Origin: Synechococcus sp. RS9909
Lineage (GTDB): Bacteria; Cyanobacteriota; Cyanobacteriia; PCC-6307; Cyanobiaceae
Length of the DNA stretch: 24,000 nt
NCBI RefSeq assembly: GCF_014279595.1
Contig: NZ_CP047943.1
Coordinates: 1,772,422-1,796,421 of the forward strand
Direction: 5' to 3'
In this document: piece after piece, positions 8,158 through 19,725 of the stretch
Layout: each line of letters opens with the position of its first letter
Position numbering within the stretch: the first letter of the stretch is position 1
Position numbers and translations under genes: made by a program
Notes under the pieces: generated by a model
Seen by the model: only the letters and a program-made list of their open reading frames with translations
Database searches by the model: none
Told to the model about the DNA's origin: nothing

Positions 8158-8261
8158 AGGGGAGCAGTCGGCATGGGCACACCCACATTTGCAATCCGAC
8201 AAGAGGGGATGACTCCTGGGGCAAAGCTGACCATCCTTGAGAGGCCAAGTGCGGCTTGCCG

Positions 8262-8762
8262 ATGCTGGAGCTGCTGCCTCCCCTTAACGACAAGAATCTT
8301 CCCTGGCTCGATGTGATCCACCCGATCGTGGTTCATTTCGTGATCGCGATGGCTCTGATCACGGTCGTCTTCGACTTCCTGGGCGTGCTGACCAAACGGC
8401 GCAACCTGTTTGAAGTCAGCTTCTGGAATCTGGTGGTGGCCACGGTGGCCATCTTCGTGGCGATCATCTTCGGGCAGATCGAAGCCGGGCTCGCCAACCC
8501 CTATGGCGCATCCCGCGACATCCTCAATTACCACAGCACCCTCGGCTGGTCCTTGGCCGGCGTGCTCGGCCTGCTGACCGGCTGGCGCTATGTGGTGCGG
8601 CAGAAAGACCCCACCAGCCTGCCTTCAGGCTTCCTGGTGATTGATGCGGTTCTGGCGGTGCTGGTGTTCTGCCAGGTCTATCTGGGCGACAAGCTGGTGT
8701 GGGTCTATGGGCTGCACACCGTGCCTGTGGTGGAAGCGGTGCGTAGCGGGGCACTCTCATGA
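8262..8762 (+). CDS. DUF2231-like integral membrane protein (4 TM, conserved His)
   Basis: ATG at 8262 (the track ORF begins at TTG 8256). IHPIVVHFVIAMALITVVFDFLG TM1 motif, four predicted TM segments. The stop overlaps the next start (ATGA 8759-8762). Confidence 0.7.
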   Translation: MLELLPPLNDKNLPWLDVIHPIVVHFVIAMALITVVFDFLGVLTKRRNLFEVSFWNLVVATVAIFVAIIFGQIEAGLANPYGASRDILNYHSTLGWSLAGVLGLLTGWRYVVRQKDPTSLPSGFLVIDAVLAVLVFCQVYLGDKLVWVYGLHTVPVVEAVRSGALS

Positions 8763-9394
8763 CCACCGTTTCGATGGATCTCCTGATCGAGATTGCGTCG
8801 CCGATCAATGACATCGTCGACCAACTCGGGGCCAACGATCTCCCCTATGCCATCCCCCTGCACCCCAACCTGGTGCACTTCACGATCGGCTTGTTCGCCA
8901 TCGGCATCGCCTTCGACTTCGCTGGCGCCTTCTATCCCCTCGAGAAGCGGGTGTTTCGGTTTCTGGCGCTGCCGGTGACCCGCACCGGCTTCCACGACGT
9001 GGGCTGGTACAACGTGCTCGCCTGCGCCGTGATCACCTTCTTCACGGTGGCTGCGGGGTTCTACGAAATGCTCCTGGCGGTGCCGCTGCCGGGGATCCGC
9101 AGTGTGATCGGCCAGAACGCGATCGACACCATGCTCTGGCATGCGATCGGCGGCGTTGCCCTGCTCCTGATCATCGTCGCCATGACGATCTGGCGGGGCT
9201 ATCAACGCTTTGTGTGGCGCAAGGACCTCGGCCGTCAGGTTACCTGGCTGTATCTGGGCTGCGGAGCGCTGATCCTGGTGATCATGGGCGTTCACGGCAG
9301 CCTCGGCGCCTGGCTTGCCAGCGAATTCGGCGTGCACATCACAGCGGATCAACTCCTCGCAGCCGGAGCCGATCTCCAAGAGGTTCTGCCATGA
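8759..9394 (+). CDS. DUF2231-like integral membrane protein, paralog of the preceding gene
   Basis: LHPNLVHFTIGLFAIGIAFDFAG TM1 motif and the same TM layout as 8262..8762. ATGA overlaps at both ends (8759-8762 and 9391-9394). Confidence 0.7.
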   Translation: MTTVSMDLLIEIASPINDIVDQLGANDLPYAIPLHPNLVHFTIGLFAIGIAFDFAGAFYPLEKRVFRFLALPVTRTGFHDVGWYNVLACAVITFFTVAAGFYEMLLAVPLPGIRSVIGQNAIDTMLWHAIGGVALLLIIVAMTIWRGYQRFVWRKDLGRQVTWLYLGCGALILVIMGVHGSLGAWLASEFGVHITADQLLAAGADLQEVLP

Positions 9395-10338
9395 CATCGA
9401 CAACCCCCAAAGGCAAGAGCGGTTGGCCGATCCGCCTCATCGCCGTCATCCTCCTGGCCACGGCCAGCGATGCCCTGCTGAGCTATCAGGTCTCGCAATG
9501 GGCCTATGGATGGCTGCCGGTGCCGGCTTCCACCGCAGCTCCCTATGTCGATGATCTCTTCAGCCTTGAAGTGGGAATCGGCGCCTTCATCTTCTTCGGT
9601 TGCACCGGTTTCATTCTTTGGTCGGTGCTGTTCAATCGGGCCGAGAAATACGACGAAAGCGATGGCCTGCCGATCGAAGGCAACAACAAACTGGAGGTCA
9701 CCTGGACGGTGATTCCTTTCATCATCGTGATGATTCTGGCCTATCAGGCCATCCACGTGAGTGAAACCCTCTCAGCCCTCGGCCCCAAGGTGAAATACGA
9801 CGTGGAAGGGGGCCTGAGCCCAGACACGGCCATTGTGACGGGAGTGCGGGATGACATTGGCCCCATCGATGTGATCGCAAGGCAGTGGAGCTGGGAGTTC
9901 ATCTATCCCAACGGCGTGCACAGCTCAGAACTCCATCTCCCCCTCGATCAGCGGGCCAATTTCCGCATGAGCAGCGAGGATGTGATCCATGGTTTCTTTG
10001 TGCCCGCCTTCCGCCTGAAGCAGGACATCGTTCCCGGCAGCGTGATTTCCTACAGCATCACACCCACCCGAGAAGGGCGTTATCGCCTTCGGGATTCCCA
10101 GTTCAGCGGTGCTTATTTCTCCCAGAATCAAACCGATGTGGTGGTGGAGAGCGAAGATATGTTCAACGCCTGGTTGAAACAAAGTGCTGCCAATCCCCTG
10201 GTTCCCGGATTGAGCCCGGGAACGGCCCTCTACAACGAGCGCCTCGCCAAGGGCAATAAGGGCTGGGCCACGGTGCCACCGGCACCGCCTCCGATGGTGA
10301 ATGATCCCGGCAATCCCGACGCTCCTCACGACGCCTGA
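9391..10338 (+). CDS. ctaC: Heme-copper oxidase subunit II lacking the CuA site (ARTO/CtaCII type)
   Basis: 315 aa from the ATG at 9391. Two N-terminal TM segments plus a cupredoxin domain (DVIHGFFVPAFRLKQDIVPG). Where CuA oxidases read CAELCGxxHxxM, this protein reads RDSQFSGAYFSQN. Confidence 0.85.
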   Translation: MTSTTPKGKSGWPIRLIAVILLATASDALLSYQVSQWAYGWLPVPASTAAPYVDDLFSLEVGIGAFIFFGCTGFILWSVLFNRAEKYDESDGLPIEGNNKLEVTWTVIPFIIVMILAYQAIHVSETLSALGPKVKYDVEGGLSPDTAIVTGVRDDIGPIDVIARQWSWEFIYPNGVHSSELHLPLDQRANFRMSSEDVIHGFFVPAFRLKQDIVPGSVISYSITPTREGRYRLRDSQFSGAYFSQNQTDVVVESEDMFNAWLKQSAANPLVPGLSPGTALYNERLAKGNKGWATVPPAPPPMVNDPGNPDAPHDA

Positions 10339-10343
10339 CCCCG

Positions 10344-12032
10344 ATGACGACCACCAAGTACGACCCGAGAGTTCTCAAGGCGCCCCATCCGGTGCCCGGT
10401 GCGCCCGACAACTGGAAGCGGTTCTTCACCTTCAACACCGACGCCAAGGTGATCGGCATCCAGTACATGGGCCTGTCCCTGTTCTTCCTGCTGGTGGGAG
10501 GACTGCTGGCCATGGTGATGCGCGGTGAACTGATCACACCGCCATCGGATCTGGTGGATCCCACCGTTTACAACGGTCTTTACACCATGCATGGAACAGT
10601 GATGCTGTTCCTGTTTCTGTTCCCGATTCTCAACGGCTTCAACAACCTGCTGATCCCCACCATGATCGGCGCCCCCGACATGGCCTTCCCGAAAGTGAAC
10701 GCCGCCGCCTTCTGGCTGGTTCCGGTGTTCTCGGTGGTGCTGCTCTCCAGCTTTTTCGTGCCAGGAGGTCCGGCCTCAGCCGGTTGGTGGTCCTATCCAC
10801 CGGTGAGCATCCAGAACCCGCTCGGCCACTTCCTCAACGGTGAATTTCTTTGGATTCTCGCCGTGGCCCTCTCGGGGATCTCTTCGATCTTGGGCGCGCT
10901 GAATTTCGTGACCACAATCATTCGCATGCGGGCCCCTGGCATGGGCTTTTTCCGGATGCCCGTGTTCGTCTGGACCGCCTGGGCAGCCCAGACCCTGCAG
11001 TTGGTGGGCCTGCCCGCCCTGACCGGTGGGGCGATCATGCTGCTCTTTGACCTGAGCTTCGGCACCAGCTTTTTCCGGCCCGAAGGTGGCGGCGATCCGG
11101 TGCTCTATCAACACTTTTTCTGGTTCTATTCGCACCCGGCGGTGTATGTGATGGTGCTGCCGGTGTTCGGCATCTTCTCCGAGCTGATCACCGTGTATTC
11201 GCGCAAGCCTCTGTTTGGCTACAAGTTTGTGGCGATCGCCTCCTTCATCATCACCTTCCTGGGCTTGATCGTGTGGGTGCACCACATGTTCTATTCAGGT
11301 ACGCCCCAGTGGATGCGCAACATCTTCATCGTCACCACGATGCTGATCGCCGTGCCCACCGGCGTGAAGGTGTTCGCCTGGCTCGGCACGCTTTGGGGAG
11401 GAAAGATCCGACTCACCACGCCGATGCTGTTCGTGCTTGGTGGTGTGGTGAATTTCATTCTGGGTGGTGTTACTGGAATCATGCTCGGCACCGCACCGAT
11501 CGACATCCATGTGGGCAACACCTATTTTGTGGTGGCTCACTTCCACTACATCATCTTCAACACGATCGGCTTCGGAATCTTTGCCGGCATCTACCACTGG
11601 TTCCCCAAGTTCACCGGCCGCATGTATTACGAAGGCCTCGGCAAAATTCATTTTGTGCTCACCTTCATCGGTGCCACCCTCAACTGGCTGCCGATGCACT
11701 GGGCTGGCCTTTACGGCATGCCCCGTCGCGTTGCCTCCTACGACCCTGAATTCGCCATCTGGAACGTGATTGCCAGCATCGGCGCCTTCATGCTCGGCGT
11801 CGCTTCGATCCCCTTCATCCTCAACATCGTCAGCTCCTGGGCCCGCGGCGCCAAGGCCTCCGCCAACCCCTGGAACGCGATCGGCCTCGAATGGCTGCTT
11901 CCCTCACCGCCACCGGCTGAGAACTTCGAGGATGACGTTCCCACCGTGATCAGCGAGCCCTATGGCTATGGCCTGGGCAAGCCCCTCGTAAAGGACGAGG
12001 AGTATTACATCCGCCGTTCCATGGAGGCGTGA
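10344..12032 (+). CDS. ctaD: Heme-copper oxidase subunit I (A2 type)
   Basis: YTMHGTVMLF (heme a His), WFYSHPAVYVMVLP (CuB His, cross-link Tyr, YS motif), VWVHHMF (CuB His pair), VVAHFHYIIF (heme a3/a His). Confidence 0.95.
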   Translation: MTTTKYDPRVLKAPHPVPGAPDNWKRFFTFNTDAKVIGIQYMGLSLFFLLVGGLLAMVMRGELITPPSDLVDPTVYNGLYTMHGTVMLFLFLFPILNGFNNLLIPTMIGAPDMAFPKVNAAAFWLVPVFSVVLLSSFFVPGGPASAGWWSYPPVSIQNPLGHFLNGEFLWILAVALSGISSILGALNFVTTIIRMRAPGMGFFRMPVFVWTAWAAQTLQLVGLPALTGGAIMLLFDLSFGTSFFRPEGGGDPVLYQHFFWFYSHPAVYVMVLPVFGIFSELITVYSRKPLFGYKFVAIASFIITFLGLIVWVHHMFYSGTPQWMRNIFIVTTMLIAVPTGVKVFAWLGTLWGGKIRLTTPMLFVLGGVVNFILGGVTGIMLGTAPIDIHVGNTYFVVAHFHYIIFNTIGFGIFAGIYHWFPKFTGRMYYEGLGKIHFVLTFIGATLNWLPMHWAGLYGMPRRVASYDPEFAIWNVIASIGAFMLGVASIPFILNIVSSWARGAKASANPWNAIGLEWLLPSPPPAENFEDDVPTVISEPYGYGLGKPLVKDEEYYIRRSMEA

Positions 12033-12643
12033 AACCAATGACTTCAGCGAGCCAAGACCTCAACCTCAATCACGAGCCAGGCCACATCAAGCACGATGGC
12101 CACAACCTCACTGGCTTCATCATCTTTCTCTGCTCAGAGAGCATCATCTTTCTGGCTTTCTTCAGCGGCTTTGCCCTGCTAAAGCTCACCAGCCCCGAAT
12201 GGCTTCCGGAAGGGGTGGAAGGCTTGGAGACCAAGCTGCCCCTGATCAACACGATTGTGCTGGTGAGCTCCAGCTTTGTGGCCTACTTCGCAGAGCGTTA
12301 TCTCCACAAGGAAAACCTCTGGGGATTTCGGGCTCTCTGGCTGCTCACCATGGCGATGGGCACCTATTTCGTGTATGGGCAATACGTGGAATGGTCGGAG
12401 CTTCCCTTCAGTCTCTCCAATGGTGTGTTCGGGGGCACGTTCTATCTGCTCACCGGATTTCATGGCCTGCATGTGATCACGGGCATCCTCTTGATGGCCC
12501 TGATGCTGTTCCGTTCCTTCCGTCCCAACAATTACGCCAAGGGCGACATGGGGGTCACCTCCGTGAGCCTGTTCTGGCACTTTGTGGATGTGATCTGGAT
12601 CATTCTCTACATCCTGATCTACGTGTGGCAGCGCCACACCTGA
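12029..12643 (+). CDS. ctaE: Heme-copper oxidase subunit III
   Basis: FYLLTGFHGLHVITG and SLFWHFVDVIWIILY signatures. The GTG at 12029 overlaps the ctaD stop (GTGA); the ATG at 12038 is an alternative start. Confidence 0.9.
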   Translation: MKPMTSASQDLNLNHEPGHIKHDGHNLTGFIIFLCSESIIFLAFFSGFALLKLTSPEWLPEGVEGLETKLPLINTIVLVSSSFVAYFAERYLHKENLWGFRALWLLTMAMGTYFVYGQYVEWSELPFSLSNGVFGGTFYLLTGFHGLHVITGILLMALMLFRSFRPNNYAKGDMGVTSVSLFWHFVDVIWIILYILIYVWQRHT

Positions 12644-14237: not shown

Positions 14238-14705
14238 TCACTCACCGAGGAGGAAGGCGCGCAGAGAACCGATCGCACCAGCCTGAGACGGTTCCGATAC
14301 CAGCGCTCCCAGCACCAGACCACCGGCAAGAACACCATTGGGCAGAAAACGGGAGGCCAGCCGGGCCTCCAGTTCGGCATTGATGTCGTCGTTGGGGTAG
14401 AGGCTGAGCACAGCCATCACTTCCCGATCATCCATGAACTCTCGCACCAGGGGGGTGAGGAGAACATCGGGAAGAAATCCCTGTTCACGGCCGAACTGAT
14501 GCTGGAGGCCATGAAACAGTTCGTGGCGGGCCACCTCCGCCATGCTGCGTCGCTTGCGACGCGCCACCTCGGGGCAAAGGCTCACCCTCTGCTGCGCGGG
14601 ATCAAAACTGCCGACAAGGTTGCTGATCGCGTAACAGCCGCTTCCTCCCTCCACCACGTGAATGCCCGCCAACGACGACACCAGAAAAAGCAGAAACAGG
14701 GGCAT
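14238..14705 (-). CDS. Hypothetical small secreted/membrane protein with an HExxH motif
   Basis: Signal-like N-terminus MPLFLLFLVSSLAGIHV, ARHELFHGLQH (HExxHxxxH), hydrophobic C-terminal stretch LPNGVLAGGLVLGALV. The antisense ORF 14136..14726 is R/H/Q-rich and overlaps the GMC gene, so I prefer the minus frame. Confidence 0.5.
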   Translation of the reverse strand: MPLFLLFLVSSLAGIHVVEGGSGCYAISNLVGSFDPAQQRVSLCPEVARRKRRSMAEVARHELFHGLQHQFGREQGFLPDVLLTPLVREFMDDREVMAVLSLYPNDDINAELEARLASRFLPNGVLAGGLVLGALVSEPSQAGAIGSLRAFLLGE

Positions 14706-14776: not shown

Positions 14777-15409
14777 CTATTCGAAGGGTCGACGTCCGAT
14801 CCAGACCCCCTGATCGTCAGCCCGCACCAGAAACTGATCGGCGTCGGATGTGAGGCTCAAACGGTTCAACTGCTTCACGTTGACGCCAGGAAAGGCCGTG
14901 AGGGGCAAGCGCCGGAGCTGAATCCCCTCAGGCAGTGGGCCGAAACGCTCCGGCCAGCTCCCCGCCACCGTTCCCTCCTCCCAACGGGCCCGGATCATCT
15001 CCACCGACAGCCCTGAAGCCACAGCGACAGGCTTGCCCCTGTCGACAGCTTTGTCCTTCGCAACAGCCTTATCCTCCAAAGCACTCGGAGGACAGGCCGG
15101 GGGCTTTTCGGCACCGGGCTTGGCAGCCGCATCCTTGGCCTCGACCAGCTCCGGTGGCGGCGGCAACTTGGCACTGAGGGTGAGCAGGGAGGAGGGCACC
15201 AGCGGCTCCTGTCCGCCCAGGCGCCGGCTCAGCCTCACGAGCTGGCGCGTGTTGTCCACCACCGTGGCCGCAGCGGCGGGAGGCGCGGCTCGGCTGCGCC
15301 AGCTGGAGGCACCGATCACCACCGCATGGATCACGATGGCCACGGCAACAGGAAGGGCCAGGGGCCACGCCTCAGGGGCGCGCCGGAGGAGGGAGTTCAA
15401 GGTCCACAT
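14777..15409 (-). CDS. TonB/TolA-like energy-transducer candidate: TonB-type TM anchor, Pro/Ala-rich spacer, non-TonB C-terminal domain
   Basis: 210 aa from the internal ATG at 15409: MWTLNSLLRRAPEAWPLALPVAVAIVIHAVVIGASSW resembles E. coli TonB LPRRFPWPTLLSVCIHGAVVAGLL (RR-x-P, WP, TM His). Spacer KLPPPPELVEAKDAAAKPGAEKPPACPP. The C-terminal ~90 aa lack the TonB_C pattern. Overlaps the upstream ExbD-like gene by 38 nt. Confidence 0.5.
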   Translation of the reverse strand: MWTLNSLLRRAPEAWPLALPVAVAIVIHAVVIGASSWRSRAAPPAAAATVVDNTRQLVRLSRRLGGQEPLVPSSLLTLSAKLPPPPELVEAKDAAAKPGAEKPPACPPSALEDKAVAKDKAVDRGKPVAVASGLSVEMIRARWEEGTVAGSWPERFGPLPEGIQLRRLPLTAFPGVNVKQLNRLSLTSDADQFLVRADDQGVWIGRRPFE

Positions 15410-15731
15410 GGAGCGTGCTGGAGTCAAGTCGGGGGAGCAGGTCTTGAACCACACCCCAGGGAACCTGGGGTGCCACCACCAAGCGAACGCGCGTGCTGGA
15501 ATCCAGGCGTTCGGCGCGCCGCAGCAGAGCGGGCAGGGCGGTGGCGGCAATCGGGCGGTTCCAGAGTCGGAGCGAGCCATCGGCGGTCAGATGGAGACTG
15601 ACCAGTCCCTGCCGTGCCGGCAACTGCCGCTGCCACTGGGGCATCACCACCGCTGCGGTGGCGAGGAGCGCAACGCAGACACTGGAAGCAGCGAAGGCCA
15701 GCGCCCAGGGCGCTGAAGGCGTCTCGTTCAT
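15372..15731 (-). CDS. ExbD/TolR-like biopolymer transport protein (copy 2)
   Basis: 119 aa with a single N-terminal TM. The periplasmic part LHLTADGSLRLWNRPIAATALPALLRRA...TRVRLVVAPQVPWGVVQDLLPRL aligns by eye to E. coli ExbD LSVKADNSMFIGNDPVTDETMITALNAL...TTIFFRGDKTVDYETLMKVMDTL. ATGA overlap with the upstream gene. Confidence 0.55.
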   Translation of the reverse strand: MNETPSAPWALAFAASSVCVALLATAAVVMPQWQRQLPARQGLVSLHLTADGSLRLWNRPIAATALPALLRRAERLDSSTRVRLVVAPQVPWGVVQDLLPRLDSSTLHVDLELPPPARP

Positions 15732-16090
15732 GGCTGCGCCAATCCCTCCGGCCGCTCCAGATGAATCGGCACGTTGCTCTGGCGCCTCAGCCAGCTGAGA
15801 TCGGCCGCAACCGCAGCGCTGGTGCGTGCACTGGAGGGCAGAAGCAACACCGCAGAGGGCCTGGGCCTGGCCTGACGCAAGGAGCGAGCCAACACCGCGG
15901 ACGACACGGCATCACCATTGAGATACCAGCTGCCGCTGCTGGAGCGGACCAGCAGCCATTGGCCCGCCGTCCGGGTCTTGGCTGCCGCCTCGACGACGGC
16001 AAGGTCCGGCGAACTCAGCAATGCGGGCACCAGAGCCAGAAAGCCGGTCAGGCTGACCACAACAACCGCAGTGGCAAGCACGAAAGGCAT
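15728..16090 (-). CDS. ExbD/TolR-like biopolymer transport protein (copy 1)
   Basis: 120 aa from the ATG at 16090 (TGATG overlap with the ExbB-like stop). MPFVLATAVVVVSL compares with ExbD TPFIDVMLVLLIIF. The periplasmic part WLLVRSSSGSWYLNGDAVSSAVLARSL...AVLLLPSSARTSAAVAADLSWL has the same pattern. Confidence 0.5.
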   Translation of the reverse strand: MPFVLATAVVVVSLTGFLALVPALLSSPDLAVVEAAAKTRTAGQWLLVRSSSGSWYLNGDAVSSAVLARSLRQARPRPSAVLLLPSSARTSAAVAADLSWLRRQSNVPIHLERPEGLAQP

Positions 16091-16611
16091 CAACCCAGGG
16101 CCGCTCGGCGGTGGAAACAAGCGTCGGCGAAGGTGCTGATCACCGCCTGGCGTTGCATCCGGCAGAGACGCTGCACCACCAAGGCGATGGTGGCAATCAA
16201 CAGACCCAGCACGGTGCCCACCAGCACCTGGCCATAGCCCACCACCAGGGCAGCACTCTGCGCCGGGAGCACCAGATCAGGGCCCAGATCCCTGAGCAAA
16301 CGCATGAGGCCCACCACGCTGGCGAGCAGACCGAGCAGGGGGCCGAGCACCATGGCGAGCTCCAGGCAGCCATCCCAGCGAGACAGCGATCGCTCCAGTC
16401 GGCGGCAAAGCCGCTCCTGATGCAACGCCGCCTGGGCGGCGGTTCGATCACTGACTTCACTGAGCAGGGCCTCGAGCTGGGCGGCACCGACCTGACGCCA
16501 CCGCCACCAGAACCGCAGGCGATCGATGGCCACCGCAACGACAGCCACCGACAGAAGCAGCAGAGGCACGATCAGTACGCCACCGTGGCGCAGGGCCTCA
16601 GCAGTGAGCAC
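16090..16611 (-). CDS. MotA/TolQ/ExbB-family proton-channel protein
   Basis: 173 aa with 3 TM. GGVLIVPLLLLSVAVVAVAIDRL (TM1) and LGPLLGLLASVVGLM...GYGQVLVGTVLGLLIATIALVV (TM2-TM3, compare PLLGLLGTVxGM...AL..T..GL). GTG start 18 nt after the TauE stop. Confidence 0.7.
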   Translation of the reverse strand: MLTAEALRHGGVLIVPLLLLSVAVVAVAIDRLRFWWRWRQVGAAQLEALLSEVSDRTAAQAALHQERLCRRLERSLSRWDGCLELAMVLGPLLGLLASVVGLMRLLRDLGPDLVLPAQSAALVVGYGQVLVGTVLGLLIATIALVVQRLCRMQRQAVISTFADACFHRRAALG

Positions 16612-16629: not shown

Positions 16630-17463
16630 TCAGGTCGACGTTAGGGACCCCTGGACGACACCCATGTGCTGCACCTGCTTGACAGGAGCACGTTGACGCC
16701 GCAATCCCTCCCATCCTGTGAGCAAGGCCGCAGACACCAGCAGGACAGAGAAGCCGATGCGGAGCTGGCGATCCTTGAAATGGGGCGCAAGGGCCTGGCC
16801 GACCAGTCCACCCACCCCACCGCCGATCAACAGGGGAAGTACCAGGGGCAACCGTTCGGCAGGCCAGTGCCCCAGGGCACCGAGGGCCACCAGGCTGTTC
16901 AGGGCAATCAGCACCAGGCTGGTGCCGCTCGCCAACTGCATCGGCAGGCCGGCCAGAAGCACGAGGGCTGGCACGAGCGCAAAGCCGCCACCGACGCCGG
17001 CAATGCCCGTCAGCAAGCCCACCAACACCCCCTGCAGCATCAGGGCCGGTGCTCGCACCGTGGCAGCGGCAACAGCGGGCTCGTCATGCGCGCGATCCGT
17101 TCGCTTCTGACGGCTGAGCATCAACCAGGCCGCCAGCAGGGCCGCGATGGCAAACACAGCCAGCTGCACCGGCTCGGCGATCCAGCCAGCCTTCACCATC
17201 GTGCCTCCGATCCAGGCCCCCATCAGGGCCGGAACCCCCAGCAGCAGGGCCGGACGGGGCGCGACGAGGCGACGGCGCAGATAGGGAATCATGTTGGCGA
17301 TCGCCAGCAGGGTCACCACCACCAGCGAAAGGGGCACCGCATCGCGGGTGGAGAGGCCAGCTCCCGTCACGAGGATGGGAAGCAGCAGGATCGATCCACC
17401 GGCACCGAGCACCGCCAACAGGAAACCGATCACACCACCACCGAGAAGCAGCAACGCAATCAC
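16630..17463 (-). CDS. TauE/SafE (DUF81) family sulfite/organosulfonate exporter-like membrane protein
   Basis: Duplicated 4-TM halves with LGAGGSILLLPIL and GIAGVGGGFALVPALVL motifs. The GTG start overlaps the upstream stop (GTGA 17460-17463). Confidence 0.8.
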   Translation of the reverse strand: MIALLLLGGGVIGFLLAVLGAGGSILLLPILVTGAGLSTRDAVPLSLVVVTLLAIANMIPYLRRRLVAPRPALLLGVPALMGAWIGGTMVKAGWIAEPVQLAVFAIAALLAAWLMLSRQKRTDRAHDEPAVAAATVRAPALMLQGVLVGLLTGIAGVGGGFALVPALVLLAGLPMQLASGTSLVLIALNSLVALGALGHWPAERLPLVLPLLIGGGVGGLVGQALAPHFKDRQLRIGFSVLLVSAALLTGWEGLRRQRAPVKQVQHMGVVQGSLTST

Positions 17464-17987
17464 GGGCGCACCTGATTCCAGGGCATGGCAGCCAGCAGGC
17501 GAGCCATCCCGCAGAAACCACTGATGCCGGCGAACATCAAGCCGGCACCGACAAAGCCACTGAGCCAGATCCAGCCCGGGGCCACCAGCACCGACAGAAG
17601 CACGCCAGCGAGCACCAGGCCGCCGGCCACGATCTGCACCTGACGCATCAGGGGCAACGGGGCCCCCTTGCGCTTCTCCACAGGAAGACCGGCCTGCTGC
17701 CAGGCCAACATGCCGCCCTCCAGATCCGCGAGGCCTTCGCCGAAGCCCTTGGCGCGCAGAGCCGCCATCCCCCGCTCACTGCGGGCACCGCTCTGGCACA
17801 CCAGCACCAGAGGCGCGGAAGGGAGTGGCGCTTCGGTGAGCTGACCGAGGGGCACATTGCGACTGCCGGCGATATGGCCGCCGACGTATTCCATCGGTTC
17901 ACGCACGTCGATCACGCTGACGCGACCCTGGCGTAAACGGTCCTGCAATTCGTGGGGACTGAGACGCAATGGAGTGATGCTGGTCAT
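17460..17987 (-). CDS. Rhodanese domain fused to a DUF2892 membrane domain (YgaP-like)
   Basis: 175 aa from the ATG at 17987: MTSITPLRLSPHELQDRL..., active-site loop VCQSGARS (CxxxxR). C-terminal VAGGLVLAGVLLS...GAGLMFAGISGFCGMARLL matches the DUF2892 pattern. The longer track ORF (to 18320) reads through a C/T-rich spacer and the upstream gene. Confidence 0.8.
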   Translation of the reverse strand: MTSITPLRLSPHELQDRLRQGRVSVIDVREPMEYVGGHIAGSRNVPLGQLTEAPLPSAPLVLVCQSGARSERGMAALRAKGFGEGLADLEGGMLAWQQAGLPVEKRKGAPLPLMRQVQIVAGGLVLAGVLLSVLVAPGWIWLSGFVGAGLMFAGISGFCGMARLLAAMPWNQVRP

Positions 17988-17993
17988 GGCGAA

Positions 17994-18028
17994 GGGATGG
18001 GGTGAATGGGAATGGGAAGGGGAAGGGG
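17994..18028 (+). other. G-tract array (six G3-4 runs, loops 2-5 nt); canonical G-quadruplex motif on the + strand, C/T-rich on the mRNA-sense (-) strand
   Basis: GGGatGGGGtgaatGGGaatGGGaaGGGGaaGGGG read directly. It lies in the 85-nt spacer between the PDO-rhodanese and ygaP-like genes. Confidence 0.7.
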
Positions 18029-18072
18029 AAGGAAGGCGGTGAATCAACCCTGGGAAACAGGTCCGGTGCCGC

Positions 18073-19185
18073 TCAGACGCTGAGGGGTTCGGGCATGGGC
18101 AGCCCTTTGCGATACCAGTCCTGAAGTCCGCCGCGCAGGTTGGCGACCTTCTTGAAACCGGCCTTGACCAACTGCTGGGTCGCGAGGGCGGAACGGCTAC
18201 CGGCATGGCAGAACACCACGGTGGCAACCTCCGGATCGAGTCGATCGAGATGCTCCGCCAGTTCGGGCAGAGGGATGTTGCGGCTGCCGGGCAGCGCGCC
18301 ATCGGGCCCCCGGGCTTCATCGGCGTTGCGAACGTCGAGAATCGTGAGCTCGGCGAGATGGTCGGCGACCCACTCGGGCTCCAGCTCCGGCAGGCCGGAG
18401 TAGCTGCGCTTCAACGGTGCCCACGCGGGTTGGTCCGGCCCATCGATCCGGGGGCGCCCACTGCGCAGATTCGCCGGCAGGGCCTGGGCGATGCGATGCG
18501 GGTGGGGAAGTTTGAGCGATTCCATATGAATCACGAAATCCCGCTCATCGGCCCCACCACCCAGACGGGCGTTGAGGGCACGCTCCTCGGCAACGCTGGT
18601 CACCTGACGACCGCTGTAGTCGTGGCCGGGATAGAGAAGGCACTGGTCGGGCAGGGAGAGGATCTGCTCGGTGATCGAGCGATAGAGGGTGTGAGCGTTG
18701 CCCTGCTGGAAATCGGAGCGGCCGCAACCCCTGATCAACAAGGCATCGCCGGTGAAGGCCGCACTGGCGTCATCCAACACGAAGGTGAGACAGCCATCGG
18801 TGTGCCCTGGAGTGGCACGCACCTCCAGGGCACGGGCTCCGAAACCGACCCGATCGCCGTGTTGCAGGGGCTGGGTGACATTCTCGGCGCGAGCGGCGGC
18901 GGCGAGGCCGATGGCGGCACCGGTGGCCTCATGCATCAGCCAGCTGCCGGTGACATGGTCGGCATGGGCGTGGGTGTCGAGGCAGGCCACCAGATCGACC
19001 CCTAACTCACGCACCAGGGCGAGATCCCGCTCATGACGCTCGAAGACCGGATCGATCAGCACACCCTTGGCCGAGGGCACATCCACCAGGAGGTAGCTGA
19101 AGGTACCGGTCTCAGCATCGAACAACTGGCGCAGAAGCAGGGAATGGCCTCCTGCGGCGGCCTGGAGAAGCGAAGAGCTAGCCAT
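18073..19185 (-). CDS. Persulfide dioxygenase (ETHE1/Blh-type MBL fold) fused to a C-terminal rhodanese domain
   Basis: THAHADHVTG (HxHxDH), TPGHTDGC, GDALLIRGCGRSDFQQGNAHTLYRSI, LYPGHDY. C-terminal rhodanese with FCHAGSRS (CxxxxR). Confidence 0.85.
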   Translation of the reverse strand: MASSSLLQAAAGGHSLLLRQLFDAETGTFSYLLVDVPSAKGVLIDPVFERHERDLALVRELGVDLVACLDTHAHADHVTGSWLMHEATGAAIGLAAAARAENVTQPLQHGDRVGFGARALEVRATPGHTDGCLTFVLDDASAAFTGDALLIRGCGRSDFQQGNAHTLYRSITEQILSLPDQCLLYPGHDYSGRQVTSVAEERALNARLGGGADERDFVIHMESLKLPHPHRIAQALPANLRSGRPRIDGPDQPAWAPLKRSYSGLPELEPEWVADHLAELTILDVRNADEARGPDGALPGSRNIPLPELAEHLDRLDPEVATVVFCHAGSRSALATQQLVKAGFKKVANLRGGLQDWYRKGLPMPEPLSV

Positions 19186-19203
19186 GGGTCCTCAGATCAC
19201 TTT

Positions 19204-19219
19204 ATGAGTGTACACGCAT
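19204..19219. promoter_or_regulatory. 16-bp near-perfect palindrome ATGAGTGTACACGCAT (7 of 8 pairs; core GTGTACAC); candidate ArsR-family operator
   Basis: Read directly. It lies 19-34 bp upstream of the PDO-rhodanese ATG, in the divergent region shared with the ArsR-like gene. Confidence 0.3.
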
Positions 19220-19362
19220 ATCAACATCGCTCATGGTTTTCGGCCCAGGACCTGCACCACGGCGCTGTCTCCCTGGTGGTAGCGCCCTTCCGCGATCGGG
19301 CGGGCATCCATGGCCGCATCGCATCACGACGGCATAATGCCTGTATCGGCATAGGGGAGGCC

Positions 19363-19725
19363 ATGGCGAGACAACCAGAACACGCCGAAGGGTGTTCCAT
19401 GCATCAGCTCTCCCCCGAAATGATCGAGGAGCTGAGCGGCTTTTTCCGACTGCTGGGCGAACCGGCACGCCTGCGCCTGATGTGCGAAATCCGCAACGGC
19501 AGCAGCGATGTGGCCACTCTGATGGACCGCACCGGCTTCAGTCAGTCCCATCTCAGCCGCCAGCTCGGCCAACTGCAGAAAGCCGGGCTGGTGCAGGTGG
19601 AACGGGATGGGAACCGCTCTCGGTATACGGCCACCGATCCGGTGGTGGAGGCCATCTGCCAGCTGGCGCAGGAGCGGCTGATGAACCACCTGCGGCAACG
19701 GCTCGACAGCCTCAATGTCGCCTGA
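19363..19725 (+). CDS. ArsR/SmtB-family winged-helix regulator, BigR/SqrR-like (two-Cys persulfide-sensor layout)
   Basis: FFRLLGEPARLRLMCEIRNGSSDVATLMDRTGFSQSHLSRQLGQLQKAGLVQVERDGNRSRYTA (HTH). Cys in alpha2 (LMCEI) and alpha5 (AICQL). Alternative start ATG 19399. Divergent from the PDO operon. Confidence 0.75.
   Translation: MARQPEHAEGCSMHQLSPEMIEELSGFFRLLGEPARLRLMCEIRNGSSDVATLMDRTGFSQSHLSRQLGQLQKAGLVQVERDGNRSRYTATDPVVEAICQLAQERLMNHLRQRLDSLNVA

What the first reader, a model, noticed from the sequence alone, without database searches (positions are those of the whole stretch)
15372..16090. Both ExbD-like paralogs lack the canonical transmembrane aspartate
In ExbD/TolR/MotB the single TM helix carries an essential Asp (E. 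coli ExbD TPFIDVMLVLL). Here copy 1 reads MPFVLATAVVVVSLTGFLALV: the PF(I/V) context is kept but Asp is replaced by Leu. Copy 2 reads APWALAFAASSVCVALLATAAVV, with no acidic residue in the helix. The periplasmic domains still align by eye. Either the proton-accepting residue has moved (the ExbB-like protein has Glu at the start of TM2, LELAMVLG), or the stator uses another mechanism or ion, or these are non-motor scaffolds.
Basis: seen in the sequence. Interest (0 to 1): 0.65.

Follow-up and report, generated by a model that had tools for sequence, protein, structure and literature searches.

The report
Ton-like motor genes missing their proton-binding residues
A marine Synechococcus carries a conserved ExbB–ExbD–ExbD–TonB-like gene cluster in which both ExbD-type proteins, and ExbB too, have lost the membrane acidic residues that all studied motors of this kind need to use the proton gradient, yet the genes are still kept by selection.

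Summary
Window 14777–16611 (minus strand) is a translationally coupled operon: ExbB-like (Pfam MotA_ExbB), two small single-pass proteins c1 and c2, and a TonB-like protein.

- **Fold and family.** c1 and c2 match no Pfam model. Their predicted periplasmic domains have the ExbD/TolR fold, and profiles link them (E about 1e-11) to the ExbD pair of an equivalent operon in Synechococcus lacustris.
- **The lost residues.** The S. lacustris pair keeps the canonical PL(I/V)D aspartate. That Asp aligns with Leu5 in c1 and Ser17 in c2. No D/E occurs in the membrane helix of any of 44 c1 relatives or of 12 close c2 relatives. The ExbB helix-3 Glu (E. coli E176) is Gln here.
- **The proposed replacement.** The Glu at the start of ExbB helix 2 is also present in the Asp-bearing relative, so it is not a relocation.
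- **Selection.** dN/dS is 0.15–0.36, so these are not pseudogenes.

Most likely (about 0.45) this is a Ton/Tol-type complex that is no longer proton-coupled and serves as an envelope anchor or scaffold. A non-canonical ion path (about 0.3) is not excluded. It is a new variant of a known kind, and I found no paper describing it.

The parts
16090..16611 (-). ExbB-like protein, 173 aa, GTG start, three hydrophobic segments (residues 6-35, 81-106, 119-152)
   Evidence: Pfam MotA_ExbB E 2e-10, 40.9 bits against a cut-off of 22.9. Best PDB sequence hit is E. coli ExbB 5sv0, E 0.001. Hydropathy.
16228..16230 (-). ExbB-like Gln128, at the position of E. coli ExbB Glu176 (helix 3)
   Evidence: HMMER alignment to 5sv0: 'giaEallaT' against 'gygQvlvgT'. 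The position is E in S. lacustris and L010, D in L017, Q in L003/L008/L012/L013/L016, and R in L001/L002.
16318..16320 (-). ExbB-like Ser98, at the position of Thr148; Thr133 (16213-16215) is at the position of Thr181
   Evidence: Alignment to 5sv0. Thr148 and Thr181 surround ExbD Asp25 in the E. coli complex (PMC6778125).
16360..16362 (-).
   Evidence: D/E is conserved in all orthologues, including the Asp-bearing S. lacustris operon. It aligns with Ala in E. coli ExbB.
15728..16090 (-). c1: ExbD-type protein, 120 aa, no cytoplasmic tail, membrane helix residues 1-25 (16016-16090), ExbD-fold periplasmic domain
   Evidence: AF2 model: periplasmic domain pLDDT about 90, and the top 6 Foldseek PDB hits are all ExbD/TolR. 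hhalign to S. lacustris ExbD1 (Pfam ExbD 1.2e-10) gives probability 97.6, E 4e-12.
16076..16078 (-). c1 Leu5, in the column of the canonical ExbD aspartate
   Evidence: hhalign 'MPFVLA' against 'IPLIDV'. Column composition is L35/A4/F3/I2 of 44.
15372..15731 (-). c2: ExbD-type protein, 119 aa, membrane helix about residues 9-30 (15642-15707), conserved PQWxxQ after the helix, ExbD-fold periplasmic domain
   Evidence: AF2 pLDDT 75.7, and the top 8 Foldseek PDB hits are all ExbD/TolR (8pek E 2.5e-4). hhalign to S. lacustris ExbD2 (P0088) gives probability 97.4, E 1.5e-11. The c2 profile reaches a canonical ExbD (P0096) at E 1.1e-4 in 1.8 billion proteins.
15681..15683 (-). c2 Ser17, in the column of the canonical ExbD aspartate
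   Evidence: hhalign 'AASSVCV' against 'PLVDLLL'. Column composition is S6/A5/G1 of 12.
14777..15409 (-). TonB/TolA-like transducer, 210 aa. It has one membrane helix with invariant His28 (15326-15328), a conserved membrane-proximal motif DNTRQLVRLSRR (15221-15256), a Pro-rich stretch and an unassigned C-terminal domain of about 75 aa. Its start overlaps c2 by 38 nt.
   Evidence: The start was chosen by agreement with orthologues (MWTLNS / MLNFSS). Alignment A6. No Pfam or PDB sequence match for the C-terminal domain.
14238..14705 (-). Conserved downstream gene: 155-aa protein with a hydrophobic N-terminus and a HELFH motif. It is a possible partner, and its membership of the system is not shown.
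   Evidence: It follows the operon in L001, L013 and L014. Weak Pfam Zn_peptidase_2, E 0.012. dN/dS 0.23.

Best explanation
This is a derived Ton/Tol-type inner-membrane complex that has lost every membrane-embedded carboxylate of the canonical proton path.

Inferred composition: an ExbB-like pentamer around a c1/c2 heterodimer, with a TonB/TolA-like partner at its side.

The three losses are c1 Asp to Leu, c2 Asp to Ser, and ExbB helix-3 Glu to Gln. The complex therefore most likely no longer works as a proton-driven 5:2 rotary motor.

It still appears built to assemble, because it keeps:
- the ExbB pore-lining helices, with the Ser/Thr ring;
- ExbD-fold periplasmic domains;
- the TonB-like helix with its His, followed by a conserved membrane-proximal motif.

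I infer that it acts as an energy-independent anchor or scaffold. It would hold the Pro-rich TonB-like protein and its unassigned C-terminal domain across the periplasm, in an envelope-tethering or assembly role.

Shown here: homology, fold, residue losses, synteny, purifying selection. Inferred: stoichiometry, lack of PMF coupling, scaffold role.
For: 1. Homology and fold. ExbB-like passes the Pfam cut-off. c1 and c2 models match only ExbD/TolR at the top of the PDB searches. Both are linked to the Asp-bearing S. lacustris ExbD pair at E 4e-12 and 1.5e-11.

2. Same four-gene order in every relative checked: ExbB, c1, c2, TonB-like.

3. All three carboxylates are gone in the window, while S. 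lacustris keeps all three.

4. Asp25 is described as essential and sits inside the Thr148/Thr181 ring (PMC6778125). The aspartate is described as the conserved proton-binding residue essential in MotB/ExbD/TolR (PMC12204202).

5. The genes are under purifying selection, with dN/dS 0.15-0.36, and have intact overlapping start and stop codons.

6. No TonB-dependent transporter lies in the 24-kb window, and the TonB-like C-terminus does not match TonB_C.
Against: - The pore-lining ExbB helices and the Ser/Thr ring stay well conserved, and c1 carries a conserved Ser/Thr ladder. This fits a still-dynamic pore as well as it fits mere packing.
- No experiment or multimer model was available, so assembly, stoichiometry and loss of coupling are all inferences.
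- dN/dS is two to four times that of neighbouring genes. This could mean relaxed constraint rather than a new stable role.
- The rest of the genome was not seen, so TBDTs or a second exbBD may exist elsewhere.
Confidence: 0.45

Rival explanations
1. It is still an ion-driven motor that uses a non-canonical path. The hydroxyl-rich c1 helix and the ExbB Ser/Thr rings would form a hydrogen-bonded or Na+-coordinating path. The conserved D/E at the cytoplasmic start of ExbB helix 2, or the D/E-R pair at the end of helix 1, would act as the terminal acceptor.
For: - c1 has a conserved Ser/Thr ladder at positions 8, 11, 13, 15 and 16.
- ExbB helix 2 (L[DE]LAMVLGPLLGLL[AS][ST]V) is almost invariant across orthologues that are only about 55% identical overall.
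- The Thr148- and Thr181-equivalents are kept.
- The TonB-like His is invariant.
- The genes are under purifying selection.
- Some Asp-less lineages still keep a carboxylate at the ExbB Glu176 position (E in L010, D in L017).
- From memory, not checked here: in GldLM the key Glu sits on the pentamer subunit GldL (Hennell James et al. 2021).
Against: - No characterised MotAB/ExbBD/TolQR-type motor works without the axle carboxylate.
- In the window the ExbB helix-3 carboxylate is gone as well (Gln; Arg in L001/L002).
- The helix-2 D/E is ancestral, being present alongside the Asp in S. lacustris, and lies about four helical turns from the canonical site.
- The window's own c1 has a weaker Ser/Thr ladder (T7, S13, T15).
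Confidence: 0.3
2. It is a decaying remnant of a Ton system that became useless, for example after loss of TonB-dependent transporters, and is on its way to pseudogenisation.
For: - In Synechococcus MIT S1220 the syntenic site holds only a truncated 116-aa exbB-like ORF.
- The family is small and patchy, with 47 representatives at E<=1e-3 among 1.8 billion proteins.
- dN/dS is higher than in neighbouring genes.
Against: - All four ORFs are intact, with conserved overlapping junctions, in lineages that have diverged to 35-55% identity.
- dN/dS of 0.15-0.36 is well below 1.
- The periplasmic domains give confident ExbD-like models.
Confidence: 0.12
3. c1 and c2 are not ExbD homologues at all but unrelated small membrane proteins, so a missing Asp means nothing.
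For: There are no Pfam or NCBIfam hits for either protein. NCBI calls them hypothetical proteins. The c1 profile finds nothing in PDB sequences.
Against: - The Foldseek top hits are exclusively ExbD/TolR for both models.
- hhalign links both to the S. lacustris ExbD pair at E about 1e-11.
- The c2 profile finds a canonical ExbD at E 1.1e-4 library-wide.
- Both genes sit directly after an exbB gene.
Confidence: 0.03

Closest known systems
ExbB-ExbD-TonB (Ton) system, e.g. E. coli (PDB 6TYI, 5SV0, 8P9R)
   Same: - An ExbB-family protein with three membrane segments and the Thr148/Thr181-equivalent hydroxyls.
- Single-pass partners with the ExbD periplasmic fold.
- A third protein with a His-bearing membrane helix and a Pro-rich linker.
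- Operon organisation.
   Different: - Two different ExbD-type genes instead of one.
- No transmembrane Asp in either, and ExbB Glu176 is replaced by Gln.
- c1 has no cytoplasmic tail.
- ExbB is short (173 aa against 244 aa).
- The TonB-like C-terminal domain does not match TonB_C.
- No TonB-dependent transporter is nearby.
The ExbB-ExbD1-ExbD2-TonB-like operon of Synechococcus lacustris (loci L005-L007)
   Same: Same four-gene order and similar gene sizes. c1 and c2 are its detectable homologues (E 4e-12 and 1.5e-11). The TonB-like protein shares the His helix, the PPPP stretch and the C-terminal motifs. ExbB shares the D/E at the start of helix 2.
   Different: S. lacustris keeps IPLIDV and LPLVDL in the two ExbDs and IAEVLVAT in ExbB. 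Its ExbD1 passes the Pfam cut-off. Its genomic neighbourhood differs, so orthology as opposed to old paralogy is not settled.
TolQ-TolR-TolA
   Same: A 5:2-type stator with a His-bearing transducer helix and an envelope-stabilising rather than transport role, which is the kind of role proposed here.
   Different: TolR keeps its essential Asp. No tolB, pal or cpoB genes are adjacent here. In the PDB sequence search the ExbB-like protein matched ExbB and MotA chains best, and no TolQ chain was listed.
Heterodimeric-axle systems (AglR-AglQ-AglS of Myxococcus; exbB-exbD1-exbD2 of Xanthomonas); from my own knowledge, not tested here
   Same: One ExbB/TolQ-type gene is followed by two different ExbD/TolR-type genes.
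   Different: As far as I recall, in those systems the ExbD/TolR-type proteins retain the Asp.
GldLM / PorLM (from memory, Hennell James et al. 2021)
   Same: A precedent for the key ionisable residue sitting on the pentamer subunit rather than on the axle.
   Different: It is unrelated in sequence and the axle helix carries an Arg. Here neither the axle helices nor the window's ExbB pore helices carry a buried charge.

Membership tests
ExbD/TolR (Pfam PF02472) | Matches the family profile | tested here: not met
   No hit at E<=1 for c1 or c2. Indirect links exist: hhalign to a Pfam-positive ExbD at E 4e-12 for c1, and the c2 profile reaches a Pfam-positive ExbD at E 1.1e-4.
ExbD/TolR (Pfam PF02472) | Single N-terminal membrane helix followed by a periplasmic domain with the ExbD/TolR fold | tested here: met
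   AF2 helices cover residues 2-25 (c1) and 7-40 (c2). Foldseek top hits are 8p9r, 8pek, 8vgc/d, 2pfu and 5by4, with TM-score to target 0.5-0.78. Hydropathy.
ExbD/TolR (Pfam PF02472) | Conserved, essential Asp in the membrane helix (E. coli D25) | tested here: not met
   The column is Leu5 in c1 and Ser17 in c2. There is no D/E in the helix in 44/44 c1 relatives and 12/12 c2 relatives.
ExbD/TolR (Pfam PF02472) | Encoded next to an exbB/tolQ gene | tested here: met
   Overlapping start and stop codons with the ExbB-like gene. The same order is seen in all related loci.
ExbB/TolQ/MotA (Pfam PF01618) | Matches the family profile above the curated cut-off | tested here: met
   E 2e-10, 40.9 bits against a cut-off of 22.9.
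ExbB/TolQ/MotA (Pfam PF01618) | Pore-lining Thr148 and Thr181 equivalents | tested here: met
   Ser98 and Thr133 in the alignment to 5sv0. The first position is Thr in the other orthologues.
ExbB/TolQ/MotA (Pfam PF01618) | Helix-3 Glu (E. coli ExbB E176 / TolQ E173) | tested here: not met
   Gln128 in the window. Other relatives have Q, R, E or D.
TonB | N-terminal membrane helix with the conserved His (SHLS motif) | tested here: inconclusive
   His28 is invariant in 7 orthologues. By my own reading of the sequence, the Ser, Leu and Ser positions of the motif are not kept.
TonB | Pro-rich periplasmic linker | tested here: met
   LPPPPPEL plus further Pro-rich stretches.
TonB | C-terminal TonB_C domain that binds Ton boxes | tested here: not met
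   No Pfam hit at E<=1 in any of 7 orthologues, and no PDB TonB hit with the profile.
TonB | Membrane-proximal D-box strand bound by the ExbD dimer | tested here: inconclusive
   A conserved motif DNTxQLVRLSRR sits at the corresponding position. It does not follow the published hydrophobic/hydrophilic pattern flanked by prolines (PMC10907165).
5:2 ion-driven rotary motors | 5:2 stoichiometry and ion-driven rotation | not testable with these tools
   No multimer modelling or experiment was available.
Anti-phage Zorya-type MotAB-like systems | Match to PADLOC models | tested here: not met
   No hits at E<=0.1 for any of the five proteins.

The most novel reading that the evidence does not exclude
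The complex is a working energy transducer with no carboxylate on the axle helices and, in this lineage, none in the ExbB pore helices. Ion flow or force coupling would run through a Ser/Thr hydroxyl ladder and peripheral acidic residues. That would show that the 'essential' Asp of MotB/ExbD/TolR-type motors is not a universal requirement.
Probability: 0.2. Interest if true: 0.85.

Novelty: new variant of a known kind. Interest (0 to 1): 0.6.

Why it matters
The transmembrane Asp of ExbD/TolR/MotB is treated as the defining, indispensable proton-binding site of this motor class. Here there is a natural, selectively maintained system in an abundant group of marine phototrophs in which that Asp is gone from both axle proteins, and the ExbB helix-3 Glu is gone as well. 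A close relative, S. lacustris, keeps all three.

This pair is a ready-made comparison for two questions. One is what the ExbB/ExbD scaffold can do without proton coupling. The other is what Ton-like systems do in picocyanobacteria: no transporter gene lies in this window, and the rest of this genome was not examined.

It also shows that standard annotation misses these proteins. NCBI calls them hypothetical and Pfam does not match them.

Tried and rejected
**Searches that found nothing**
- Direct Pfam and NCBIfam scans of c1, c2 and the TonB-like protein gave no hits.
- BLASTP of c1 against c2 found nothing.
- The c1 profile against PDB sequences found nothing. The c2 profile gave only E 0.2-0.3 hits, though these were in register with ExbD.
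- hhalign of the c2 family directly against E. coli ExbD was weak (E 0.024). The link had to go through the S. lacustris proteins and through structure.
- The TonB-like profile against PDB and Pfam gave only chance-level hits.
- PADLOC gave no hits, which excludes a Zorya-like defence system.
- Six literature searches found no report of Asp-less ExbD in picocyanobacteria (one further query was rejected as malformed). The siderophore-cluster papers concern a different, canonical tonB-exbBD cluster.

**Explanations rejected**
- Upstream alternative starts that would add an Asp.
- Assembly or sequencing error, because the state is shared by dozens of independent clusters.
- Relocation of the acceptor to Glu84 of ExbB, because that residue is ancestral.

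**Limitations**
- The pattern-based genome scan with ExbB found only 4 loci, so the phyletic distribution was not mapped.
Full report
**What is there**

On the minus strand, window 16611..14777 carries four tightly packed genes.
- An ExbB-like gene, 16611..16090, 173 aa.
- c1, 16090..15728, 120 aa. Its ATG shares one base with the ExbB stop (TGATG).
- c2, 15731..15372, 119 aa, with an ATGA overlap with c1.
- A fourth gene whose conserved start (MWTLNS...) at 15409 overlaps c2 by 38 nt and which ends at 14777, 210 aa.

Hydropathy gives three membrane segments in the ExbB-like protein and one in each of the other three. The quoted peptides and the E. coli comparison motif are correct.

The window's own ExbB-like protein is recorded on a 2.60-Mb NCBI contig. 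Its 90% cluster includes SynWH8101_1955 of Synechococcus sp. WH 8101. There the two small proteins are annotated as hypothetical proteins, although JGI sometimes calls c2 'ExbD'.

**Are c1 and c2 really ExbD-type proteins?**

Direct family scans say nothing. Only the ExbB-like protein hits Pfam (MotA_ExbB, 2e-10, above the cut-off); c1, c2 and the fourth protein have no Pfam or NCBIfam match. Three independent lines nevertheless establish homology.

1. *Structure.* AlphaFold models built on family alignments have mean pLDDT 77 (c1) and 76 (c2), with about 90 in the c1 periplasmic domain. Each shows a membrane helix followed by a β-β-β-α-β-α-β domain. In Foldseek searches of the PDB the top 6 (c1) and top 8 (c2) hits are exclusively ExbD or TolR periplasmic domains, with best E 2e-3 and 2.5e-4 and TM-score to target up to 0.73 and 0.78.
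2. *Profiles.* An exhaustive HMMER search with the c2 family profile finds only 47 representatives at E<=1e-3. Among them are P0088 (E 1.3e-8) and a textbook ExbD, P0096 (E 1.1e-4; Pfam ExbD 2.6e-28).
3. *Context.* P0088 lies in a Synechococcus lacustris contig within an operon of identical architecture: ExbB (202 aa, Pfam), ExbD1 (140 aa, Pfam ExbD 1.2e-10), P0088, and a 203-aa TonB-like protein. hhalign links the c1 family to that ExbD1 (probability 97.6%, E 4e-12) and the c2 family to P0088 (probability 97.4%, E 1.5e-11).

c1 and c2 are only remotely related to each other. BLASTP finds nothing, and hhalign gives probability 58%, E 1e-4.

**Is the aspartate really missing?**

The S. lacustris proteins read IPLIDVLLVVL and LPLVDLLLVLI, the canonical motif. 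In the profile alignments the Asp column falls on Leu5 of c1 and Ser17 of c2.
- In 44 c1 relatives down to about 30% identity, no D/E occurs in residues 1-25. The Asp column is L35/A4/F3/I2.
- In the 12 close c2 relatives, no D/E lies inside the helix. The Asp column is S6/A5/G1.
- Some more distant c2 relatives have a D/E at the cytoplasmic edge, about 8 residues N-terminal of the canonical column (for example WLDALALG...PQR). This is neither conserved nor present in the window's clade.

Alternative starts cannot add an Asp. c1 has also lost the whole cytoplasmic tail that ExbD1 of S. lacustris still has.

Aligned to E. coli ExbB (5sv0), the Thr148 and Thr181 positions are Ser98 and Thr133. 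Glu176 is Gln128. Across relatives the Glu176 position is:
- E in S. lacustris and in L010;
- D in L017;
- Q in L003, L008, L012, L013 and L016;
- R in L001 and L002.

L010 and L017 already lack both ExbD aspartates. The axle Asp was therefore apparently lost first and the ExbB carboxylate later.

It lies 14 residues towards the cytoplasm from the Thr148-equivalent and aligns with Ala in E. coli. It is ancestral, not compensatory.

**The fourth protein**

It has an invariant His in its membrane helix (IVIHAVV; compare E. coli TonB CIHGAVV). After the helix come a strongly conserved motif DNTxQLVRLSRR, where TonB has its ExbD-binding D-box, then a PPPP(P) stretch, a variable linker, and a conserved C-terminal domain of about 75 residues (D-box from PMC10907165). 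The C-terminal domain matches neither Pfam TonB_C nor any PDB sequence. I therefore call it TonB/TolA-like by architecture only.

**Is it alive?**

Against syntenic relatives L012, L013 and L008, dN/dS is as follows.

| Gene | dN/dS |
|---|---|
| ExbB-like | 0.21-0.27 |
| c1 | 0.25-0.26 |
| c2 | 0.15-0.36 |
| TonB-like | 0.34 |
| GMC oxidoreductase (neighbour) | 0.09-0.12 |
| COX3 (neighbour) | 0.06-0.09 |

dS is about 1, so these values are rough. The genes are constrained, though less tightly than their neighbours. All four ORFs and their overlaps are intact in lineages that have diverged to 35-55% identity. In Synechococcus MIT S1220 the same site holds only a truncated exbB-like ORF, so the operon can be lost.

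**Context**

The window holds no TonB-dependent transporter.
- Upstream side: glutathione reductase, then an ArsR, MBL-rhodanese, rhodanese/YgaP and TauE block.
- Downstream side: a 155-aa HExxH protein, a GMC oxidoreductase, and a ctaC/D/E oxidase operon.

There is no match to anti-phage models.

**How it most likely works**

The literature treats the ExbD aspartate as essential. It sits in the ring of ExbB Thr148 and Thr181 (PMC6778125) and is described as the conserved proton-binding residue essential in MotB/ExbD/TolR (PMC12204202). With both axle aspartates and the ExbB helix-3 Glu replaced by non-ionisable residues, the canonical proton path does not exist here.

My best reading (0.45) is a Ton/Tol-type complex that still assembles but is no longer proton-coupled. 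It would serve as a static anchor or platform for the TonB-like protein spanning the periplasm.

The main rival (0.3) is a non-canonical ion path. It is suggested by:
- the near-invariance of ExbB helix 2;
- the retained hydroxyl ring;
- the Ser/Thr ladder in c1 (positions 8, 11, 13, 15, 16).

Decay (0.12) and non-homology (0.03) are poorly supported. The stoichiometry, the heterodimer and the physiological role are inferences; none could be tested here.

**Novelty**

Six literature searches found no description of Asp-less ExbD-type proteins in picocyanobacteria or elsewhere. The library does not hold most subscription-journal papers, so this is not proof of absence. I rate it a new variant of a known kind. 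Interest is moderate to fairly high because it offers a natural test of a residue considered indispensable.

Noticed in passing
window 14238-14705 (-): A 155-aa protein with a hydrophobic N-terminus and a HELFH (HExxH) motif directly follows the operon. It is conserved at the same place in L001, L013 and L014. Pfam gives only a weak Zn_peptidase_2 hit (E 0.012). It may be a secreted partner of the system.
   Followed up: partly
window 16630-19725: A sulfur-related block lies between glutathione reductase and the operon: TauE/SafE exporter, rhodanese-YgaP, metallo-beta-lactamase-rhodanese fusion and an ArsR-type regulator. In L001-L004 glutathione reductase directly precedes exbB, so this block looks like an insertion in the window's lineage. 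The TauE stop is only 18 nt from the ExbB start.
   Followed up: partly
L004 3992-4342 (Synechococcus sp. MIT S1220): At the syntenic site between glutathione reductase and the GMC oxidoreductase, only a truncated 116-aa exbB-like ORF remains. c1, c2 and the TonB-like gene are gone, which is an example of loss of the operon.
   Followed up: partly
window 8256-12643 (+): Two tandem DUF2231 membrane-protein genes are followed by a ctaC/ctaD/ctaE cytochrome oxidase operon. This may be the alternative ctaII-type oxidase discussed for low-iron picocyanobacteria in PMC10119275. The GMC oxidoreductase and oxidase genes are syntenic with the operon in L008, L013 and L014.
   Followed up: no
proteins P0053, P0057, P0059, P0076: Several database 'proteins' are chimeras of c1+c2 or c2+TonB-like reading frames, or carry frameshifted tails. 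They probably come from assembly or frameshift errors at the overlapping gene junctions and should not be read as natural fusions.
   Followed up: no
proteins P0082, P0083, P0091, P0097, P0100: Very long proteins (800-1700 aa) hit the c2 profile in 4-14 separate short stretches. They are likely repeat or low-complexity matches. I did not examine them.
   Followed up: no
window 15221-15256 (-) and orthologues: The TonB-like proteins share a strongly conserved membrane-proximal motif (V)DNTxQLVRLSRR, where E. coli TonB has its D-box. The motif is more helix-like and basic than the published D-box pattern, which suggests a different way of gripping the ExbD-type domains.
   Followed up: partly
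L001, L002 ExbB-like: In two marine MAG lineages the ExbB Glu176 position is Arg (YGRML). This would place a ring of positive charges where the canonical protein has carboxylates.
   Followed up: no
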